The notes under the pieces: generated by a model
Seen by the model: only the letters and a program-made list of their open reading frames with translations
Database searches by the model: none
What the model was told of the DNA's origin: nothing
Source: a phage
Direction: 5' to 3' (one strand)
DNA: 64,000 bases
Assembly (NCBI GenBank): GCA_026188615.1
Contig: GCA_026188615.1_4525.1
Made by a program: the position numbers and the translations under genes
In this document: piece by piece, positions 4,538 to 57,996 of the stretch
How the letters are laid out: each line of letters starts with the position of its first letter
How positions within the stretch are numbered: position 1 is the first letter of the stretch

Positions 4538-6030
4538 TATAAACCTGTCTGGGACCACGGTCCAAATACGTCTTCAAATGAATCCGCTTCTGTTTTATCA
4601 AAACGGAACCCTTTAATAATTGGAAGGAAAATACCTACAGTACCTTCACGGCCTTTAGAATGAACCCAACCATTGCATTCACAATCAGCAATACGTCCAA
4701 TCAATTTACCTTCACGAGCTTCGGTCATTAATCGTTCACGGTCCAAATCATGACGCTCATCTAAAGGAATAAGAACCTTTACACCATCAACTGTTTTATG
4801 AGTTGTATCTTTAAACCCTGAACCACAATCAGTTGTAATACGACGACAACGTGATACGAGTTCGACACCACCTAATTTGTTAGGGTCTTTAGAGTGTTCA
4901 TAGTATCCTACAACTTCTAAAGCGATATCAATAACTTCTTTAAATTTAATTAGGTTCTTAGAGCGTTTGTTTTCCCAGTATGAATCACGGTTTTTAAGGA
5001 TAATACCTTCAAGACCTTGGTCAACATATTTTTTATAAACCACTTTAGCTTCGTCAAGATTACGAACTAACTGATTTTCAATTGGCTCAATTCGCTTAAA
5101 GCCTTCAGCCATATTTTCAAGAGCAGCAAAACGAACATCGTATTTCTGACCTTTAATTTTACCGTCAGAATAGACTTCATCTAAAGGAACATAGTCCCAG
5201 GCTTGAAGAACCATACCTTCAGCTTCTTTAGGAGAAATAGTCCCTTGAAGAGATTTATTTGCTAAACCGTTTGAAGTGCTACGGTCCGCAACTTGTACTT
5301 CTTCGGATTCTTCATTATCACCAAATAAGAACGACAGGTCATTTCCTGAGCTCACAGCCTTTTTAATATCAAATGAATGGTAAACTAATTCACCGTCGAT
5401 TAAAACCCCATTAGGGTGTCTTTCACGAGCTTCTTTAGTCATTTCCATTAGTTCATCCGCTAATAGAGTAAGACCATGATATTCGTTGCCGGCACGAGAA
5501 AAGAATTGAACACCATCATCGCGAACTTCAGCGAAACAACGAGCACCATCTGCTTTTAATTGGGCAAATGCAGGCCATTTAATATTTTTAGTAATCAATT
5601 TCTCGTCATATGCAGATGCTAACATCTGTGGTTGCAATTGAATAAGTCCAGGCCACACCTTATTCGCGATAGACACTGAAGCACCTACTTCAAGGTCGCG
5701 CATCATTACACGACGAAGGACTTCTACATCATCAGGTTTACCATCAGCGATATAACCCATGAGCTCTTTAATTGCAGCATTACCAGTGAGTTTACGAGTG
5801 GCTAATGTGAACTCAATAAAATCCAACATGTCATCTAATTCAAGAAGACCATACGCTTGAGACCTTTCACCTGGTCCTGGCCATTTCTTAATATAATACT
5901 GGATACCACGTGCATATGTTAAACGATACACACGTTCAAGTAATTTGTTGTCCTTATTTTTCTTAAGGATTTCCTGTTTTGTTTTAGTAGAACCGATCGC
6001 AGCTATTTGGTTTAAAATATCTAAAATCAT
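4537..6030 (-). CDS. 30: ATP-dependent DNA ligase gp30
   Basis: 497 aa; near-colinear with recalled T4 ligase (MIL.ILN..A.IGSTK, KADGARCFAEVR adenylation lysine motif, ECECNGW near C-term). Confidence 0.95.
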   Translation of the reverse strand: MILDILNQIAAIGSTKTKQEILKKNKDNKLLERVYRLTYARGIQYYIKKWPGPGERSQAYGLLELDDMLDFIEFTLATRKLTGNAAIKELMGYIADGKPDDVEVLRRVMMRDLEVGASVSIANKVWPGLIQLQPQMLASAYDEKLITKNIKWPAFAQLKADGARCFAEVRDDGVQFFSRAGNEYHGLTLLADELMEMTKEARERHPNGVLIDGELVYHSFDIKKAVSSGNDLSFLFGDNEESEEVQVADRSTSNGLANKSLQGTISPKEAEGMVLQAWDYVPLDEVYSDGKIKGQKYDVRFAALENMAEGFKRIEPIENQLVRNLDEAKVVYKKYVDQGLEGIILKNRDSYWENKRSKNLIKFKEVIDIALEVVGYYEHSKDPNKLGGVELVSRCRRITTDCGSGFKDTTHKTVDGVKVLIPLDERHDLDRERLMTEAREGKLIGRIADCECNGWVHSKGREGTVGIFLPIIKGFRFDKTEADSFEDVFGPWSQTGL

Positions 6031-51892: not shown

Positions 51893-52688
51893 AGGACATC
51901 CAACACATTTTATAACCTTTGCAGGTTCTGTTAGGATTATTTAATGCTTTCAATATATTAGAAGACCCTATATCTAAATACTCCCTTAATTCATAAAGAT
52001 AGTTAAAATCAATAGTTTCACCTGTTTTTACACTTGTGATTCTTATAGGCCTTCTTTCATATTTAGATTTATACAACTCTCTAGTCTTAGCTTTAGTTTC
52101 TTCCGACCTAGGAGTGTATGGTTTAAATCCTTTTGTTTTAAATGTTTCCATTCTTGATTTAGTTATTTTATCCTGGTGTTCTTTTGTTTTTACAGGTGCT
52201 TTTCGCCCATTCTCCCAAGATAACTTGTTGGCCTGTATTATTTTATCTATTGCTTCTTGCGTATGAGTTTTACCATAAAATGGATTTAATTCGCCTATAC
52301 GTTGTGAAGCAATATGTGACATTAATTCTCTTGTTGCTTTAGTATGTTTTTTACCTTTAAATGGATTGCCATTTTTAGCAATCCATTCTTTCATAAATCT
52401 AGAGTGCTCTTTAGAGAATTCTTGTTTAAGCCAATCATAATCTCTAGAATTTCTAGCTCCCATGTAAAAAGCTCTAATAGCCATAAGCATAGAACGGTTC
52501 TTATGAATTTTATAAAGCAATAAATGGGCGATAAAATGCTCTCTAGGGGTCAATTTAACTAGATTTGATTTAGCATTACTCCCGCCCATAGATTTTGGCA
52601 ATATATGATGCGTCTCAGTATAATTAGGAATAATGCTGCGGTTTTTAGCCGCAGCGATAAGTTTATCATAAATTTTACGATAATTCAT
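51891..52688 (-). CDS. free-standing HNH homing endonuclease (MobA-like, intact)
   Basis: ~265 aa from MNYRKIYDKL start overlapping gene 39 stop; HNH motif ETHHILPKSMGGSNAKSNLVKLTPREH; basic repeat-rich C-terminus. Confidence 0.7.
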   Translation of the reverse strand: MNYRKIYDKLIAAAKNRSIIPNYTETHHILPKSMGGSNAKSNLVKLTPREHFIAHLLLYKIHKNRSMLMAIRAFYMGARNSRDYDWLKQEFSKEHSRFMKEWIAKNGNPFKGKKHTKATRELMSHIASQRIGELNPFYGKTHTQEAIDKIIQANKLSWENGRKAPVKTKEHQDKITKSRMETFKTKGFKPYTPRSEETKAKTRELYKSKYERRPIRITSVKTGETIDFNYLYELREYLDIGSSNILKALNNPNRTCKGYKMCWMS

Positions 52689-54508
52689 TATCCTAGCATC
52701 CAATCTTTACGGAGTTCAGGGTCGTTACCCATGAGCATTTCAAATAGTTCTTTCCAATTTTCAGGAAGTTTAACTACGTCGTACACAGGGTTTTGAATCA
52801 TTTCTTTATATTCATCTCGCTGAAGTGAGCCTAATCCCTTGATGTATCGAATACTATGCTTAGGAAGTGTATCTTTAGCTTCTTCATACTCAGCTACAGT
52901 ATAAAACCATTTTTGAGTTTTGCCAATTTGTGCAATAATTACAGGCGTTTTAACAAAGCGAATACGTCCTTGTTCAAACAATTCAGGCCAATTACTAAAG
53001 AAAGCAAGCAAAGCCGGATAGATACTTCCAAGACCGTCATGATCGGCATCGGTCATAATTGCAATATTACGATAGTTCGTATTCTCTGCCTTTTCACCAA
53101 GAATAAGACCTGTGATAGCACAGATATCAAAGAGCTCTTTGTTCTTCATCATATCAGCATATGACATACCCCAGCTATTCATCACCTTACCACGTAATGG
53201 GAATCCGCCGTGTAGTTCACGGTCACGAACATCAATGAGATAACCAATTGCCGAATCACCTTCTGTTAAAAACAATGTCGTATCTGCATCTTTACCACAT
53301 TGGTTAGCTTTAATATGCTTATGAACCTTAGCTTTAGTTGCCTTTTTAGCTGCTTTAGTTTCTGCAGCCTTTTCTGCTGCCAATTTACGAGCTAATGCTG
53401 CTTCAACAATAGGCATAATCAAGGCTTCGTTTTTAAGAAGTGCCTGAGCAATTTTCTTAGCATCTAATTGGATATGATTACGAATATCACCATACGTTGA
53501 CGTTAAACGTTCTTTAGTCTGAGAATCAAAACGCATGTTGCTCATGTCTCTAATAAACATCAACATTGTGAGGCATTCTTTAACACGAGCTTTAGTGACT
53601 TCAATACCCTTATATTTCTTTTTAATACCCGGTAAAAGATGTTCGCAGATATCATCCATTACACATTCAACATGATGACCACCATTTTTAGTATGGATGT
53701 TATTCACATAAGTTAAATGACGGAAGCCATCTGGTGATGTTGTGAATGCTATAGAGACTTTATCATTTTCTTGAATGATGTTATCTTCACCAAATTGTTT
53801 AGCAAATCGTTTAAAATTACCATCAACCTTTTTACCATTAAATGTGAACTTGATATCAGGATAAACGACTGCCAATGTTTGAAGTCGGTCTAAAGTAATA
53901 TCTAAATAAATTTGAGATAAATTATGCTCTTCAAATGAAGAGAAATCAGGAGTGAAGATTACTTTAGTGCCTTTACCTTTAGATTTCTTAGAAGACCATG
54001 ATTTGTTTTCCATTCCGTTTGAACAGTTAACAGTGATTTCATTTTCGCCATCTGACGTGATGCCTGTAAACAAAGTAGAGAAGATATTAGTTAAACTACT
54101 CCCGACGCCGTTCATACCGCCAGTCTTGCGTTCAGAATCATCACCAAAGTTACCACCAGCCTTTGGAATAGTCCAGGCTGCTACAGGCCCAGGAATTTGT
54201 TCACCTGTTTGGTCAGTAACTAAACCTTGAGGAATACCACGTCCGTTATCTTCCACCGAAACTTGATTATTTTTAATTTGCACATCAATTTTATTTGCAA
54301 ACTTAAATGATGTACGAATAGCTTCATCAACCGAGTTGTCAATAATCTCATCGATTAATTTAACCAGACCAGGAACATATTCAACTTGTTGATATTTACC
54401 AAACAAAAAACGCTCATGGGCTTCTTTAGCAGAAGAACCAATATACATGCCACTACGTTTCTTAATATGTTCTACATCTGACAGTACCTTAATTTCATTT
54501 TTAATCAT
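52688..54508 (-). CDS. 39: DNA topoisomerase II large subunit gp39 (GyrB-like), unsplit form
   Basis: 606 aa single ORF; GHKL ATPase-like N-terminus (..DNGRGIP..); no separate gene 60. Confidence 0.85.
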   Translation of the reverse strand: MIKNEIKVLSDVEHIKKRSGMYIGSSAKEAHERFLFGKYQQVEYVPGLVKLIDEIIDNSVDEAIRTSFKFANKIDVQIKNNQVSVEDNGRGIPQGLVTDQTGEQIPGPVAAWTIPKAGGNFGDDSERKTGGMNGVGSSLTNIFSTLFTGITSDGENEITVNCSNGMENKSWSSKKSKGKGTKVIFTPDFSSFEEHNLSQIYLDITLDRLQTLAVVYPDIKFTFNGKKVDGNFKRFAKQFGEDNIIQENDKVSIAFTTSPDGFRHLTYVNNIHTKNGGHHVECVMDDICEHLLPGIKKKYKGIEVTKARVKECLTMLMFIRDMSNMRFDSQTKERLTSTYGDIRNHIQLDAKKIAQALLKNEALIMPIVEAALARKLAAEKAAETKAAKKATKAKVHKHIKANQCGKDADTTLFLTEGDSAIGYLIDVRDRELHGGFPLRGKVMNSWGMSYADMMKNKELFDICAITGLILGEKAENTNYRNIAIMTDADHDGLGSIYPALLAFFSNWPELFEQGRIRFVKTPVIIAQIGKTQKWFYTVAEYEEAKDTLPKHSIRYIKGLGSLQRDEYKEMIQNPVYDVVKLPENWKELFEMLMGNDPELRKDWMLG

Positions 54509-54558
54509 GTTGTCTCCTCGTTATGAAGGTATTCTATCATCCTAAATCTAAAGCAAAA

Positions 54559-54572
54559 AGGGCCGAAGCCCT
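54559..54572 (-). terminator. hairpin AGGGC-UUCG-GCCCU plus U-run upstream of gene 39
   Basis: 5-bp stem with CGAA loop, A-run 54555..54559. Confidence 0.4.
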
Positions 54573-54997
54573 TATTTAAATTTAATTTTCTGAAGTGCAT
54601 CAATTGCAGCCAGGCGCCCTTGTTCACTTTTAACTGTAATGACCACATCGCCTGATACGATCACCGAACCATCAACAAATTCTATAGAGCCTTTTTTGAA
54701 ATCAACAGATGTATCTGGTTCCGGAACTTCTTCAAAGAATTTAAATTCTGCACCATAAAGCAGAATATCACCTTGCATACTATGAATAGTTCGGCCATAA
54801 TCGCCTACGGCTTCTACAGCAATAACCGAAACACCGTAACCAATCATCTCTTCCACAATAAAATCTTTAGACAATAAAGTAGTATGCAGATTAGTATTAA
54901 GACGTTTACCAGTCGTATTAAGAATTCTCAAGAAATTATCTTCCTGTCCTTTGATAATACGATATTTCTTACCAACTTCAAAACCTTTAAAAGCCAT
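54572..54997 (-). CDS. hypothetical protein (39.1 position)
   Basis: 141-aa ORF. Confidence 0.45.
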   Translation of the reverse strand: MAFKGFEVGKKYRIIKGQEDNFLRILNTTGKRLNTNLHTTLLSKDFIVEEMIGYGVSVIAVEAVGDYGRTIHSMQGDILLYGAEFKFFEEVPEPDTSVDFKKGSIEFVDGSVIVSGDVVITVKSEQGRLAAIDALQKIKFK

Positions 54998-54999
54998 AA

Positions 55000-55179
55000 T
55001 TAACCCTTCTTAAGTAAGTCGTAAAAACCACCGTTCACATGTTTAGGAGCAGAAACCCGACGAGTAGACAGACGATGACATTCAGGGCAAACATCGTTTT
55101 CTCGTTCAGAAATTCTTTTAATTTTTTCATATTCATGACCACAATCTTCGGATTGACATTTATAGTCGTATAACGGCAT
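55000..55179 (-). CDS. small CxxC...CxxC zinc-ribbon protein, 59 aa (not in ORF track)
   Basis: Hand-translated [59 protein letters not shown]; two Cys pairs. Confidence 0.5.
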   Translation of the reverse strand: MPLYDYKCQSEDCGHEYEKIKRISERENDVCPECHRLSTRRVSAPKHVNGGFYDLLKKG

Positions 55180-55592
55180 TATTGTTCCTTAAAGTGAGCT
55201 TTCAACATTTGATACAAAGACCATGCCTGGTCGTTATTTTCGATAGTAATTGTCATCACTGGAAATTCAGACAATTCGTCAAGTTCATCAGAATCTTGCT
55301 CTTCGGACGCTTGATATGGATTTCCAACTTCGTCAAAGAACTCTGCTTCATTCGTGGAGAGCCAGATAAAGTTTTCATCAAGGATATCACCGCCCGTGGC
55401 GTATCCAACCGTGCCAGTAGATGTCACAATTTTAGTAGGACGACCAAGATGGTCAACATCTAATACTTTAAATGGTTCCATGCCAAGACGTCGTGCATAA
55501 ATCCCATTATCAGTGTGGTCTTTAATAAACTCTTCTTGGGCACGTTTATCTTTAAATTGGTACCATGAGTTAACGCGGAATTTATTAGCCAT
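55179..55592 (-). CDS. hypothetical protein with acidic C-terminus
   Basis: ORF track 55179..55610 trimmed to MANKF start. Confidence 0.4.
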
Positions 55593-56460: not shown

Positions 56461-56880
56461 TTATGCGAAAGCAGCTGGGCTATATTTTTTAATTTGGAAT
56501 TCAGGAACTACCATGAACTGACCAGCGAAAACGATGTTATAAAGCTTAACACCATCTTCTACCCAACGGTCGCTAATAAATCCGGCGATTTGCTTAGTTT
56601 TCCATGGCGTTCCATCAGTTGCCGCAGCAATAGTGAATTCATGGTCTTTTTCAACAGAAACTGATCTGCATAGTCCCCATTTGAACGCTTTTTCTTCTGG
56701 CTCAATGAACTGGCTTGAGACGTAGCCAATATTACCATTAGCATCACGAACTTTAACTTGGTTACGACCAAAAACCGGATCACTCACAGAAAGAACTTCA
56801 ACCAACTTCCCGGCAACTTTAGAGCGAGAAGCAACAGATACATATACGTAATCACCTGTAGAGAGATTTACAATATTCAT
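56461..56880 (-). CDS. paralog 1 of tandem small-protein family (dexA-proximal)
   Basis: 139 aa; shares N-terminal SRSK.AGKLVEV and C-terminal FISD.WVEDG.KLYNIVF.G.F.VV blocks with neighbours. Confidence 0.55.
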   Translation of the reverse strand: MNIVNLSTGDYVYVSVASRSKVAGKLVEVLSVSDPVFGRNQVKVRDANGNIGYVSSQFIEPEEKAFKWGLCRSVSVEKDHEFTIAAATDGTPWKTKQIAGFISDRWVEDGVKLYNIVFAGQFMVVPEFQIKKYSPAAFA

Positions 56881-56889
56881 AATAATTCC

Positions 56890-57375
56890 TTAAGCTTTAC
56901 GAGGAGACACATAGCGAGTGATTTCGGATTCTTTAACAACTCGGAAGTCACCTAAGAATACGATATTGTATAACTTTTCACCATCTTCTACCCATTGGTC
57001 ACTAATGAAGCCACACATGGTATCAGTTTTGCTTGGATAACCGTATTCATCGATGAAGTCAAATTCTTTATCAGTCTGGAATTCAACACCTTTACACAAG
57101 GCCCATTTGAACTGTACATTAGGCTCTGTGGATTCAACTTTTTCTCTTGAAGCAAAAGCACTACTCGCAGGAGTTTCCAAGAACTTTGCACGAACATAAG
57201 CGAACTGAGTTTCCCTCGACCCAAGACTAGGAATAATACGAACTTTTACCTCAGAATCTTCATCTTTAACGCCTTCTTTAAGTTGAATACTTACAACTTC
57301 GACCAATTTTCCTGCTGCTTTAGAACGAGATTTGTTAGATACGCGAACGATTTCACCAATAATACCAAGATTCAT
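56890..57375 (-). CDS. paralog 2 of tandem small-protein family
   Basis: 161 aa; same conserved blocks. Confidence 0.55.
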   Translation of the reverse strand: MNLGIIGEIVRVSNKSRSKAAGKLVEVVSIQLKEGVKDEDSEVKVRIIPSLGSRETQFAYVRAKFLETPASSAFASREKVESTEPNVQFKWALCKGVEFQTDKEFDFIDEYGYPSKTDTMCGFISDQWVEDGEKLYNIVFLGDFRVVKESEITRYVSPRKA

Positions 57376-57436: not shown

Positions 57437-57931
57437 TTAATTAAGGATATTAACCACAGCACTACGTGGAACTACACTAAAATCACCTGCATGAACAACG
57501 TTCAGAAGTTCAACACCGTCTTCAATCCACTGATCAGTCACCCATCCATTTACTGGACCAGCGAATGGGCGTCGAATTGAAACGTATTTACACAACAAAT
57601 CAGTAGGCTCAATAGGCTTAATCAGAGTACCGTACATACAAGCGATATCCATATCAATACAGATATCTTTAACGGGTTCTACTTCTTCAATCAACAGTTC
57701 AAAGTCGGTGCTTGGAAGGGCGGTGGTAGAAATTGTACCATATGAATTTTTAATTTCTAAGAATAACCAAGGGCCTTCAACTTGTTTGATGAAGTTAACA
57801 ATAGTGAAACTATTACCTTGAGTGGCACCTAAAATTTCACAAAACTTTTCATAAGCTCGCACTGAAGCACCGTACCAGTTGATTTGTTTTTCATCTTTCA
57901 GGATGTAAGTAGCCGTAGTATTGATATTCAT
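57437..57931 (-). CDS. paralog 3 of tandem small-protein family (more divergent)
   Basis: ~164 aa from MNINTT start; C-terminal WVTDQWIEDGVELLNVVHAGDFSVVP block. Confidence 0.5.
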   Translation of the reverse strand: MNINTTATYILKDEKQINWYGASVRAYEKFCEILGATQGNSFTIVNFIKQVEGPWLFLEIKNSYGTISTTALPSTDFELLIEEVEPVKDICIDMDIACMYGTLIKPIEPTDLLCKYVSIRRPFAGPVNGWVTDQWIEDGVELLNVVHAGDFSVVPRSAVVNILN

Positions 57932-57996
57932 AATGTTTTCCTGTTTGGTTAAGATAGAAAGATTATACTCCAACCATCCTTGGTTGTAAACTGGTT

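What the first reader, a model, noticed from the sequence alone, without database searches (positions are those of the whole stretch)
55000..55179. Unannotated 59-aa zinc-ribbon ORF missing from the six-frame track
Hand translation gives [59 protein letters not shown] with two CxxC pairs, a FmdB-like zinc-ribbon pattern; its stop sits 3 nt before the next gene start. Small zinc ribbons in phage early regions are often regulators or inhibitors and are lost under length cut-offs.
Basis: seen in the sequence. Interest (0 to 1): 0.4.

Follow-up and report, generated by a model that had tools for sequence, protein, structure and literature searches.

The report
Known T-even gene 39.2 (NwgI)
The 59-codon reading frame is a real, strongly conserved phage gene, but it is the already described T4-type gene 39.2 (NwgI), a tiny zinc-ribbon protein reported to adjust the host GroEL protein-folding machine, and it was missed only because it is one residue shorter than a 60-residue cut-off.

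Summary
The ORF is real. It is not new. The protein is 100% identical to RB69 ORF006. It is the syntenic ortholog of T4 gene 39.2, is encoded in 956 phage records, and is annotated in most of the 60 records sampled. It was absent from an ORF list only because 59 aa is below the 60-aa default.

It passes the curated cut-offs of Pfam Zn_ribbon_8 and TIGR02605 (FmdB family). It is under strong purifying selection (dN/dS 0.01-0.11). It keeps four metal ligands, but the first pair is C-x4-C, not CxxC. An equally conserved tail, SAPKHVNGGFYD, follows the ribbon.

Published genetics and biochemistry (Ang & Georgopoulos 2012, read here through two secondary sources) show that T4 Gp39.2/NwgI shifts GroEL toward its open, cochaperonin-binding state. 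They also show it is needed for growth on certain groEL mutant hosts.

The common database label "FmdB-like transcriptional regulator" has no support. The only other characterised family member I found, M. tuberculosis Ruc, is also a chaperone. I found no paper linking Ruc and NwgI; that link is the one mildly new point.

Verdict: already known, low interest.

The parts
55000..55179 (-). Coding sequence of the gene 39.2 ortholog (NwgI-type), 59 aa plus the TAA stop
   Evidence: ORF and translation. 100% identical to RB69 ORF006. 81-84% identical to T4 GT7, JS10 and VR7 gp39.2. dN/dS 0.01-0.11.
55054..55179 (-). Zinc-ribbon domain, residues 1-42. The N-terminal motif is MPxYxYxC. The candidate metal ligands are C8 (55156-55158), C13 (55141-55143), C31 (55087-55089) and C34 (55078-55080).
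   Evidence: PF09723 matches residues 1-42 at 49.3 bits. TIGR02605 matches residues 1-44 at 48 bits. AlphaFold pLDDT is about 90 with four short strands. C8 and C34 are invariant, and C13 and C31 are at least 95% conserved, in 124 family members. Codons were read.
55018..55050 (-). Conserved tail motif A44-P-K-H-V-N-G-G-F-Y-D54, outside the Pfam domain. It is the candidate partner-contact segment.
   Evidence: P45, G51 and D54 are invariant, and A44, G50 and Y53 are at least 90% conserved, in 23 T4-like orthologs. In 124 wider family members, position 51 is G in 101 and position 52 is aromatic in 88. Model confidence is lower here, pLDDT 64-68. The contact role is inference.
55186..55190 (-). 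Shine-Dalgarno AAGGA, 6 nt upstream of the ATG. The goF stop codon (55181-55179) overlaps the ATG as TAATG, which suggests translational coupling.
   Evidence: The upstream context is conserved in KMB38, JK45, T2, T4 and JS10.
55179..55592 (-). Upstream gene goF (mRNA metabolism modulator), in the same transcription unit
   Evidence: Annotation of the 99.5%-identical record OR525701 and of RB69. PHROG 622 match at 2e-39.
54572..54997 (-). Downstream 141-aa ORF (RB69 ORF005 type, a distant goF-like paralog). Its Shine-Dalgarno-like GAAGGG lies in the last codons of 39.2 (55003-55011).
   Evidence: The sequence ...AAGAAGGGTTAATTATG is read.
54558..54573 (-). Terminator-like hairpin AAGGGCTTCGGCCCTT followed by TTTT, which closes the unit before gene 39
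   Evidence: This is a consensus match only.

Best explanation
This is the ortholog of bacteriophage T4/RB69 gene 39.2 (NwgI). It is an early-expressed, 59-residue, single-domain zinc-ribbon protein of the FmdB/Zn_ribbon_8 family.

Shown here: it is a real gene under purifying selection. It is translationally coupled to goF in the cef-goF-39.2 unit just upstream of topoisomerase gene 39. It has four conserved metal ligands (C8, C13, C31, C34) and a conserved tail, APKHVNGGFYD.

Taken from the literature for the T4 ortholog: the protein acts on the host GroEL chaperonin. It shifts GroEL's open/closed equilibrium toward the open form that binds GroES or the phage cochaperonin Gp31. As a result, phage proteins that depend on GroEL (classically the major capsid protein) still fold on hosts whose GroEL is suboptimal. 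A T4 39.2 deletion grows on ordinary K-12 but is blocked on specific groEL mutants.

Inferred, not shown: the zinc ribbon is a small rigid scaffold, and the conserved, less ordered G-G-F-Y-D tail is the part that contacts the chaperone.
For: Identity and orthology:
- 100% identical to RB69 ORF006.
- 81-93% identical to T4, T2, JS10 and VR7 gp39.2.
- Same position between goF and gene 39 in Mosigvirus, Tequatrovirus, Dhakavirus, Gaprivervirus, Moonvirus, Krischvirus and Pseudotevenvirus.

Real gene:
- dN/dS 0.01-0.11.
- 956 phage records encode it.
- The exact protein is found on 532 contigs.

Family:
- PF09723 at 49.3 bits against a cut-off of 34.4.
- TIGR02605 at 48 bits against a cut-off of 31.3.

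Fold: the model has a confident ribbon core and a less ordered tail.

Expression: the T4 39.2 transcript is classed early.

Function:
- PMC5153855, written by the discoverer, describes a 58-aa peptide whose genetics and biochemistry indicate a shift of GroEL toward the open, GroES-binding conformation, with the deletion mutant blocked on specific groEL hosts.

Family context: M. tuberculosis Ruc belongs to the same family. It is a zinc-binding chaperone co-regulated with hsp60 and hsp70 (PMC7448276).
Against: - The primary paper (Genetics 190:989) is not in the held library, so the mechanism rests on two secondary accounts plus my memory of the abstract.
- The experiments I could confirm from held text were done with T4 Gp39.2, which is 81% identical, and not with this exact protein. 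I recall that RB69 39.2, identical to this protein, was the clone first selected, but I could not verify that here.
- No direct GroEL-binding site, stoichiometry or structure is known to me.
- The protein was not detected in the T4 proteome study, although that study used the truncated 45-aa reference sequence.
- Zinc binding has not been shown for the phage protein.
- The role of the tail is pure inference from conservation.
Confidence: 0.85

Rival explanations
1. It is a DNA-binding transcriptional regulator, as the widespread RefSeq/PHROG label 'FmdB-like transcriptional regulator' implies. UniRef's label for the T2 cluster, 'Anti-repressor protein', is a related suggestion.
For: These labels appear. 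A weak sub-threshold match to the Ogr/Delta zinc finger, a phage transcription activator family, scores 15.9 bits against a cut-off of 26.3 (E 0.012). Zinc-ribbon modules that contact RNA polymerase (RbpA, Rpb12/RpoP) are among the non-significant fold neighbours.
Against: The name is inherited from a gene next to formamidase in Methylophilus; to my knowledge no regulatory activity was ever demonstrated, and no held paper reports one. No DNA-binding domain passes any cut-off. Both family members with experimental data, NwgI and Ruc, act in protein folding. The fold matches are all non-significant, with the best E-value at 0.33.
Confidence: 0.04
2. It is a self-sufficient Ruc-like holdase or redox sensor. 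On oxidation of the zinc-thiolate centre it binds unfolded proteins and hands them to DnaK or GroEL. The groEL-allele effects would then be indirect.
For: It belongs to the same family as Ruc, whose N-terminal domain (rebuilt from the published primers) passes PF09723 at 49.4 bits and TIGR02605 at 58.4 bits. The ligand architecture is shared: C-x2/4-C, a 17-residue spacer, then C-x2-C. The G-x-G-aromatic-Tyr tail motif is also shared.
Against: The phage protein lacks the long hydrophilic disordered C-terminal half that characterises Ruc homologs, and only 5 residues follow the motif. The reported suppression is allele-specific for groEL/groES (my memory of the 2012 abstract) and was described as a shift of GroEL conformation, which argues for a direct effect on GroEL.
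Confidence: 0.08
3. It is a chance ORF or an untranslated spacer between goF and the next gene.
For: It is short, it lies in AT-rich DNA that is full of spurious ORFs, and the protein was not detected by mass spectrometry in T4.
Against: dN/dS is 0.01-0.11 with saturated synonymous change. The ORF is conserved to 36-50% identity across different genera with the ligands intact. It passes curated HMM cut-offs. A deletion phenotype has been published for the T4 ortholog.
Confidence: 0.01

Closest known systems
Bacteriophage T4 / RB69 gene 39.2 product, NwgI (Ang & Georgopoulos, Genetics 2012)
   Same: It is the same gene. It is 100% identical to RB69 ORF006 and 81% identical to the intact 58-aa T4 protein. 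It has the same neighbours (cef-goF upstream, gene 39 downstream), the same ligands, the same tail and the same early transcription unit.
   Different: It is one residue longer than the T4 protein (...LLKKG against ...LLKG). The gene downstream of it is a goF-like 141-aa ORF instead of T4 39.1. The T4 reference record shows only a 45-aa truncated version, because of a one-base frame difference.
Mycobacterium tuberculosis Ruc (Rv0991c), redox-regulated chaperone (PMC7448276)
   Same: It belongs to the same Pfam/TIGRFAM family. It shares the N-terminal MPxYxYxC motif, four Cys ligands separated by a 17-residue spacer, and a motif (V)FKGsG(F/W)Y that aligns with VNGGFY. Both have a role in the chaperone network.
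   Different: Ruc is about 110 aa, has a long disordered hydrophilic C-terminal half, and has a CxxC first knuckle. It acts as an oxidation-activated holdase with DnaKJE. The phage protein is a bare ribbon plus motif with a Cx4C first knuckle, and it is reported to act on GroEL. Pairwise similarity is low: 23% identity over 35 residues, E 3e-4.
FmdB of Methylophilus methylotrophus, and 'FmdB family / CxxC_CxxC_SSSS' proteins in general (TIGR02605, PF09723)
   Same: The domain scores above the curated cut-offs and the motif layout is the same.
   Different: The 'regulatory protein' label of this family is untested, to my knowledge. The phage protein lacks the Ser/Gly-rich C-terminal low-complexity region that gives TIGR02605 its 'SSSS' name.
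Phage cochaperonins Gp31 (T4) and CocO (RB49)
   Same: They are phage-encoded small proteins that retune host GroEL for phage protein folding (PMC5649160).
   Different: Gp31 and CocO are GroES-like heptameric lids and are unrelated in sequence and fold. Gp39.2 is a monomer-sized zinc ribbon that is said to favour cochaperonin binding rather than replace the lid.

Membership tests
T4-type gene 39.2 (NwgI) orthologous group | High sequence identity to characterised gp39.2 proteins over the full length | tested here: met
   100% identical to RB69 ORF006. 93% to T2, and 81-84% to T4 GT7, JS10 and VR7.
T4-type gene 39.2 (NwgI) orthologous group | Conserved genomic position: downstream of cef-goF and upstream of topoisomerase gene 39, on the same strand | tested here: met
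   Window ORFs compared with the annotations of KMB38, JK45, T4, T2, JS10, VR7 and RB69.
T4-type gene 39.2 (NwgI) orthologous group | Modulates GroEL: allele-specific suppression of groEL/groES mutants, and a deletion blocked on certain groEL hosts | not testable with these tools
   Literature only, for T4 Gp39.2.
Pfam PF09723 Zn_ribbon_8 / TIGR02605 FmdB family zinc ribbon | Score above the curated gathering/trusted cut-off | tested here: met
   49.3 bits against 34.4. 48.0 bits against 31.3.
Pfam PF09723 Zn_ribbon_8 / TIGR02605 FmdB family zinc ribbon | Two metal-binding knuckles (canonically CxxC ... CxxC) separated by about 17 residues, preceded by MPxYxYxC | tested here: met
   The layout here is C8-x4-C13, 17 residues, C31-x2-C34. 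In 124 family members the first knuckle is CxxC in 73, Cx4C in 34 and CxC in 11; the spacer is 17 residues in 86. So the Cx4C form is a common family variant.
Pfam PF09723 Zn_ribbon_8 / TIGR02605 FmdB family zinc ribbon | Ser/Gly/Ala-rich low-complexity C-terminal extension (the 'SSSS' of the TIGRFAM name) | tested here: not met
   The protein ends 5 residues after the GGFYD motif, whereas cellular members carry hydrophilic tails of 30-70 residues. This extension lies outside the domain model and is not required for the domain call.
Pfam PF09723 Zn_ribbon_8 / TIGR02605 FmdB family zinc ribbon | Binds one zinc ion through the four Cys | not testable with these tools
   Shown by ICP-MS for Ruc (PMC7448276). 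Not shown for the phage protein.
Ruc-type redox-regulated chaperones | Intrinsically disordered hydrophilic C-terminal half | tested here: not met
   Only 17 residues follow the ribbon, and they contain a conserved motif rather than variable hydrophilic sequence.
Ruc-type redox-regulated chaperones | Oxidation-activated holdase activity and cooperation with DnaKJE | not testable with these tools
Transcriptional regulators (as labelled in RefSeq and PHROG 1076) | A recognised DNA-binding or RNA-polymerase-binding domain, or demonstrated regulatory activity | tested here: not met
   No such Pfam or NCBIfam family reaches its cut-off. The Ogr_Delta match is sub-threshold. Fold neighbours are non-significant. 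No held paper reports regulation by an FmdB-family protein.

The most novel reading that the evidence does not exclude
Phage NwgI and bacterial Ruc are two experimentally studied members of one family (FmdB/Zn_ribbon_8). Neither literature cites the other. Their shared core is MPxYxYxC, the zinc ribbon, and the G-x-G-(W/F/Y)-Y motif. This core could be a general module that docks onto chaperones (GroEL and/or DnaK). If so, the thousands of cellular 'FmdB family regulators' would be chaperone-network cofactors, and T-even phages would have captured a stripped-down version to retune host GroEL. The phage protein, being only ribbon plus motif, would then define the minimal functional unit of the family.
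Probability: 0.3. Interest if true: 0.45.

Novelty: already known. Interest (0 to 1): 0.12.

Why it matters
As a discovery it does not matter, because the gene has been known and functionally studied since 2012. There are three practical lessons.

1. A 60-aa ORF cut-off drops a functional phage gene by a single residue.

2. Public annotation of this gene is inconsistent and in part misleading. It is called 'FmdB-like transcriptional regulator', 'Anti-repressor' or 'hypothetical'. It is truncated to 45 aa in the T4 reference and has no CDS feature in T4 GT7. The published GroEL-modulator function never reached the databases, and the truncated reference sequence may have contributed to proteomics missing the protein.

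3. The family relationship between NwgI and the mycobacterial chaperone Ruc suggests a common role in protein folding for a very large and uncharacterised bacterial family. That hypothesis is cheap to test.

Tried and rejected
- The word-indexed homolog search reached only 8 near-identical proteins. The exhaustive HMMER search was needed to see the wider family: 252 representatives at E<=1e-3.
- The sequence search of the PDB gave only weak bL31 zinc-ribbon matches, E about 0.3-0.5.
- Foldseek of the model against the PDB gave nothing significant, best E 0.33. The neighbours are generic zinc ribbons (MCM N-terminal domain, Rpb12/RpoP, aRF1, RbpA) and carry no functional information.
- The promoter scan found no more sigma-70-like sites than shuffled sequence (21 against 19.0 +/- 3.7), so I drew no promoter conclusion.
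- The primary paper could not be opened by PMC id, DOI or PubMed id. I used secondary accounts instead.
I rebuilt it as alignment A2.
- BLASTP between the two ORFs flanking 39.2 is marginal (E 0.039). Their relationship rests on shared PHROG 622 membership only.
- My first regular expression for ligand spacing miscounted CxxCGH as Cx4H. I discarded it and redid the count.
- I considered that the tail SAPKHVNGGFYDLL mimics the GroES mobile loop (KSAGGIVL, from memory). I rejected this as untestable at this length and partly at odds with a protein said to promote cochaperonin binding.
- I looked for a possible overlapping plus-strand gene. Only short stop-bounded ORFs exist there and nothing supports them.

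Full report
**1. Observation**

The interval 55000..55179 contains an ORF on the minus strand. The start is ATG 55179-55177 and the stop is TAA 55002-55000. The plus strand of the same interval is broken by stops.

Three details need correcting:
- The first cysteine pair is C8-x4-C13 (CQSEDC), not CxxC. Only C31-x2-C34 is CxxC.
- The gap to the next start codon (ATG at 54997) is two bases (TAA-TT-ATG).

The ORF is missing from a standard ORF listing simply because 59 aa is below the 60-aa default. The ORF listing at its default shows only the two flanking genes and an antisense ORF.

**2. Is it a gene?**

Length alone is not evidence here, because the same region holds dozens of spurious ORFs of 30-90 aa. 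The evidence lies elsewhere.

- *Curated family models.* Pfam PF09723 Zn_ribbon_8 scores 49.3 bits against a gathering score of 34.4, covering residues 1-42. TIGR02605 'FmdB family zinc ribbon protein' scores 48.0 bits against 31.3. PHROG 1076 matches at 1.9e-12.
- *Distribution.* tblastn finds the protein in 956 phage records, 913 of them over at least 80% of its length. The exact protein is on 532 contigs of the large protein collection.
- *Selection.* Nei-Gojobori estimates against T2, T4 GT7, JS10 and VR7 give dN/dS of 0.01-0.11, with synonymous sites near or at saturation. The other two frames on the same strand contain stops in every phage.
- *Translation signals.* An AAGGA Shine-Dalgarno sequence lies 6 nt upstream of the ATG. 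The ATG overlaps the stop of the upstream gene goF as TAATG. This arrangement is conserved in KMB38, JK45, T2, T4 and JS10.

**3. What it is**

The closest public record is Escherichia phage vB-Eco-KMB38 (Mosigvirus), 99.5% identical over 1.3 kb. It annotates this ORF as a CDS between goF and a 141-aa hypothetical protein, just upstream of topoisomerase gene 39.

The protein is 100% identical to RB69 ORF006. It occupies the position of T4 gene 39.2.

The same gene sits in the same place (after goF or dexA, before the gene 39 cluster) in these phages:
- T2
- JS10, Dhakavirus
- VR7, Gaprivervirus
- Moon
- ECD7, Krischvirus
- Miller, Pseudotevenvirus

More distant copies occur in Serratia phage Muldoon, Cronobacter phage LPCS28 and an Ackermannviridae phage.

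So the ORF is neither unannotated in public data nor new.

**4. Anatomy and conservation**

In 23 T4-like orthologs, the invariant positions are M1, P2, Y4, Y6, C8, C34, P45, G51 and D54. R26, A44, G50 and Y53 are at least 90% conserved.

Four candidate metal ligands are always present, but their spacing varies between lineages:

| Lineage | First knuckle | Second knuckle |
|---|---|---|
| Tequatro-, Mosig-, Dhaka-, Gaprivervirus | Cx4C | CxxC |
| Krischvirus and Muldoon | CxxH | CxxC |
| Moon | CxC | Cx5C |
| Miller | CxxC | CxC |

That criterion is not met.

In 124 wider family members:
- The first knuckle is CxxC in 73, Cx4C in 34 and CxC in 11.
- The second knuckle is CxxC in 115.
- The spacer between the knuckles is 17 residues in 86.

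The tail motif SAPKHVNGGFYD lies outside the Pfam domain, yet it is as conserved as the ligands. It aligns with the (S)AP..F.(F)KG.G(W/F)Y.(T)D motif of cellular family members. Position 51 is G in 101 of 124 sequences, and position 52 is aromatic in 88 of 124.

The AlphaFold2 model was built on the 124-sequence alignment and has a mean pLDDT of 81.8. It has a confident four-strand ribbon (residues 1-40, pLDDT about 90) and a less ordered tail (pLDDT 64-68). Structure searches added nothing functional: the best Foldseek E-value was 0.33, and all neighbours were generic zinc ribbons. The PDB sequence search found only weak bL31 matches.

**5. How it most likely works**

T4 gene 39.2 has been characterised. 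[quoted passage not shown] Two held papers summarise it.

[quoted passage not shown]' [quoted passage not shown] From my own memory of the abstract, unverified here:
- The gene was first selected from RB69, whose protein is identical to this one.
- Homologs from T4, RB43 and RB49 behaved alike.
- Overproduction is lethal.

In T4 the 39.2 transcript is classed as early. The protein was not detected by mass spectrometry (PMC9697503 Table S2).

My explanation has three layers:
- *Shown here:* it is a real, early, translationally coupled small gene that encodes a zinc ribbon with a conserved tail.
- *From the literature, for the ortholog:* it tunes GroEL toward cochaperonin binding, so that GroEL-dependent phage proteins fold on suboptimal hosts.
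- *Inferred:* the ribbon is a scaffold and the G-G-F-Y-D tail is the contact surface.

**6. Comparison with what is known**

*(a) Membership in the gp39.2/NwgI orthologous group.* Identity and synteny were tested and are met. The phenotype cannot be tested here.

*(b) Membership in the FmdB/Zn_ribbon_8 family.* The curated cut-offs and the ligand architecture are met. The Ser-rich C-terminal extension that gives TIGR02605 its 'SSSS' name is absent.

*(c) The 'transcriptional regulator' label.* RefSeq and PHROG use this label, but nothing I could find supports it. No DNA-binding family passes its cut-off, and no held paper reports such an activity.

*(d) M. tuberculosis Ruc (Rv0991c).* This is the only other family member with experimental data that I found. 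It is a zinc-binding, oxidation-activated chaperone. It is co-regulated with hsp60 and hsp70, and its gene is often next to dnaK, grpE or groESL (PMC7448276). I established that Ruc belongs to this family in three ways:
- PMC13407613 notes that the Rv0991c ortholog is annotated 'FmdB family transcriptional regulator'.
- I rebuilt the Ruc N-terminal domain from the mutagenesis and cloning primers printed in PMC7448276. The result is MPTYSYECTQCANRFDVV-xxxx-DDALTTCERCSGRLRKLF-x-AVGVVFKG, with four residues unknown and one gap length assumed. It scores 49.4 bits on PF09723 and 58.4 bits on TIGR02605. It aligns to the window protein with E = 3e-4.
- Ruc's ligands are C8, C11, C29 and C32, which gives the same 17-residue spacer.

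Ruc also differs in clear ways. It is about 110 aa, it has a long disordered C-terminal half, and it works with DnaKJE. The phage protein is therefore not a Ruc. It is best described as a minimal relative.

No held paper mentions both proteins, and the Ruc paper's main text contains no occurrence of 'phage'.

**7. Novelty and score**

The finding is already known: a named gene with a published function. The ideas that it is unannotated or a likely regulator or inhibitor were not.

What remains of value is small:
- The link between NwgI and Ruc, and the hypothesis it suggests for the large cellular FmdB family (probability about 0.3).
- The annotation problems listed under 'noticed in passing'.

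Interest: 0.12.

Noticed in passing
L003 (T4 reference NC_000866) 5660-5839, compared with L007 (T4 GT7) 1501-1677: The T4 reference sequence differs from T4 GT7 at five sites within about 70 bp of gene 39.2, including one extra T. That extra base truncates the annotated protein to 45 aa instead of 58 aa. The GT7 record carries the intact ORF but has no CDS feature for it. The T4 proteome study that failed to detect Gp39.2 used the reference annotation.
   Followed up: yes
window 55000-55179 (the exact protein in public collections): Public names for this identical protein are 'FmdB-like transcriptional regulator', 'zinc ribbon domain-containing protein', 'putative FmdB family regulatory protein' and 'hypothetical protein'. 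The T2 cluster is called 'Anti-repressor protein'. None reflects the published GroEL-modulator function.
   Followed up: yes
window 54572-54997 (-) and 55179-55592 (-): The two genes that bracket 39.2 both match PHROG 622, the goF-like family: E = 8.5e-22 for the 141-aa ORF and 2e-39 for goF. Their pairwise BLASTP is only marginal (E 0.039). T4 and T2 have different genes (39.1 and others) at the downstream position, so this slot is variable among T-even phages.
   Followed up: partly
window 55003-55011 (-): The last three codons of 39.2 (AAG AAG GGT) form a Shine-Dalgarno-like GAAGGG for the downstream ORF, whose ATG follows the stop after two bases. This may explain the extra Lys relative to T4 and T2 (...LLKG).
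   Followed up: no
window 54558-54573 (-): A terminator-like hairpin, AAGGGCTTCGGCCCTT followed by a T-run, begins at the last base of the 141-aa ORF's stop codon (54572-54574) and separates this unit from gene 39. A similar AAGGCCTTCGGGCCTTT element follows T4 39.1.
   Followed up: partly
window 56461-56880, 56890-57375, 57437-57973 (all -): Three tandem MotB-like ORFs share a C-terminal motif close to ISDxWVEDGxxLYNIVFxGxFxVV, which suggests serial duplication of a MotB-type domain (RB69 annotation).
   Followed up: no
window 52688-54508 (-): Topoisomerase gene 39 here is the fused 606-aa form seen in RB69 and T2. It is not the form seen in T4, where the gene is split into 39 and 60 by an insertion containing mobA.
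   Followed up: no
L012 (Serratia phage IME250, Ackermannviridae) 1501-1746: An 81-aa homolog has a longer tail and lies next to a gp33-like late-transcription accessory gene. In that record only the last 126 nt are annotated as a CDS, whereas the full ORF starts at MPFYDYACKGCGH. This looks like another annotation truncation.
   Followed up: no
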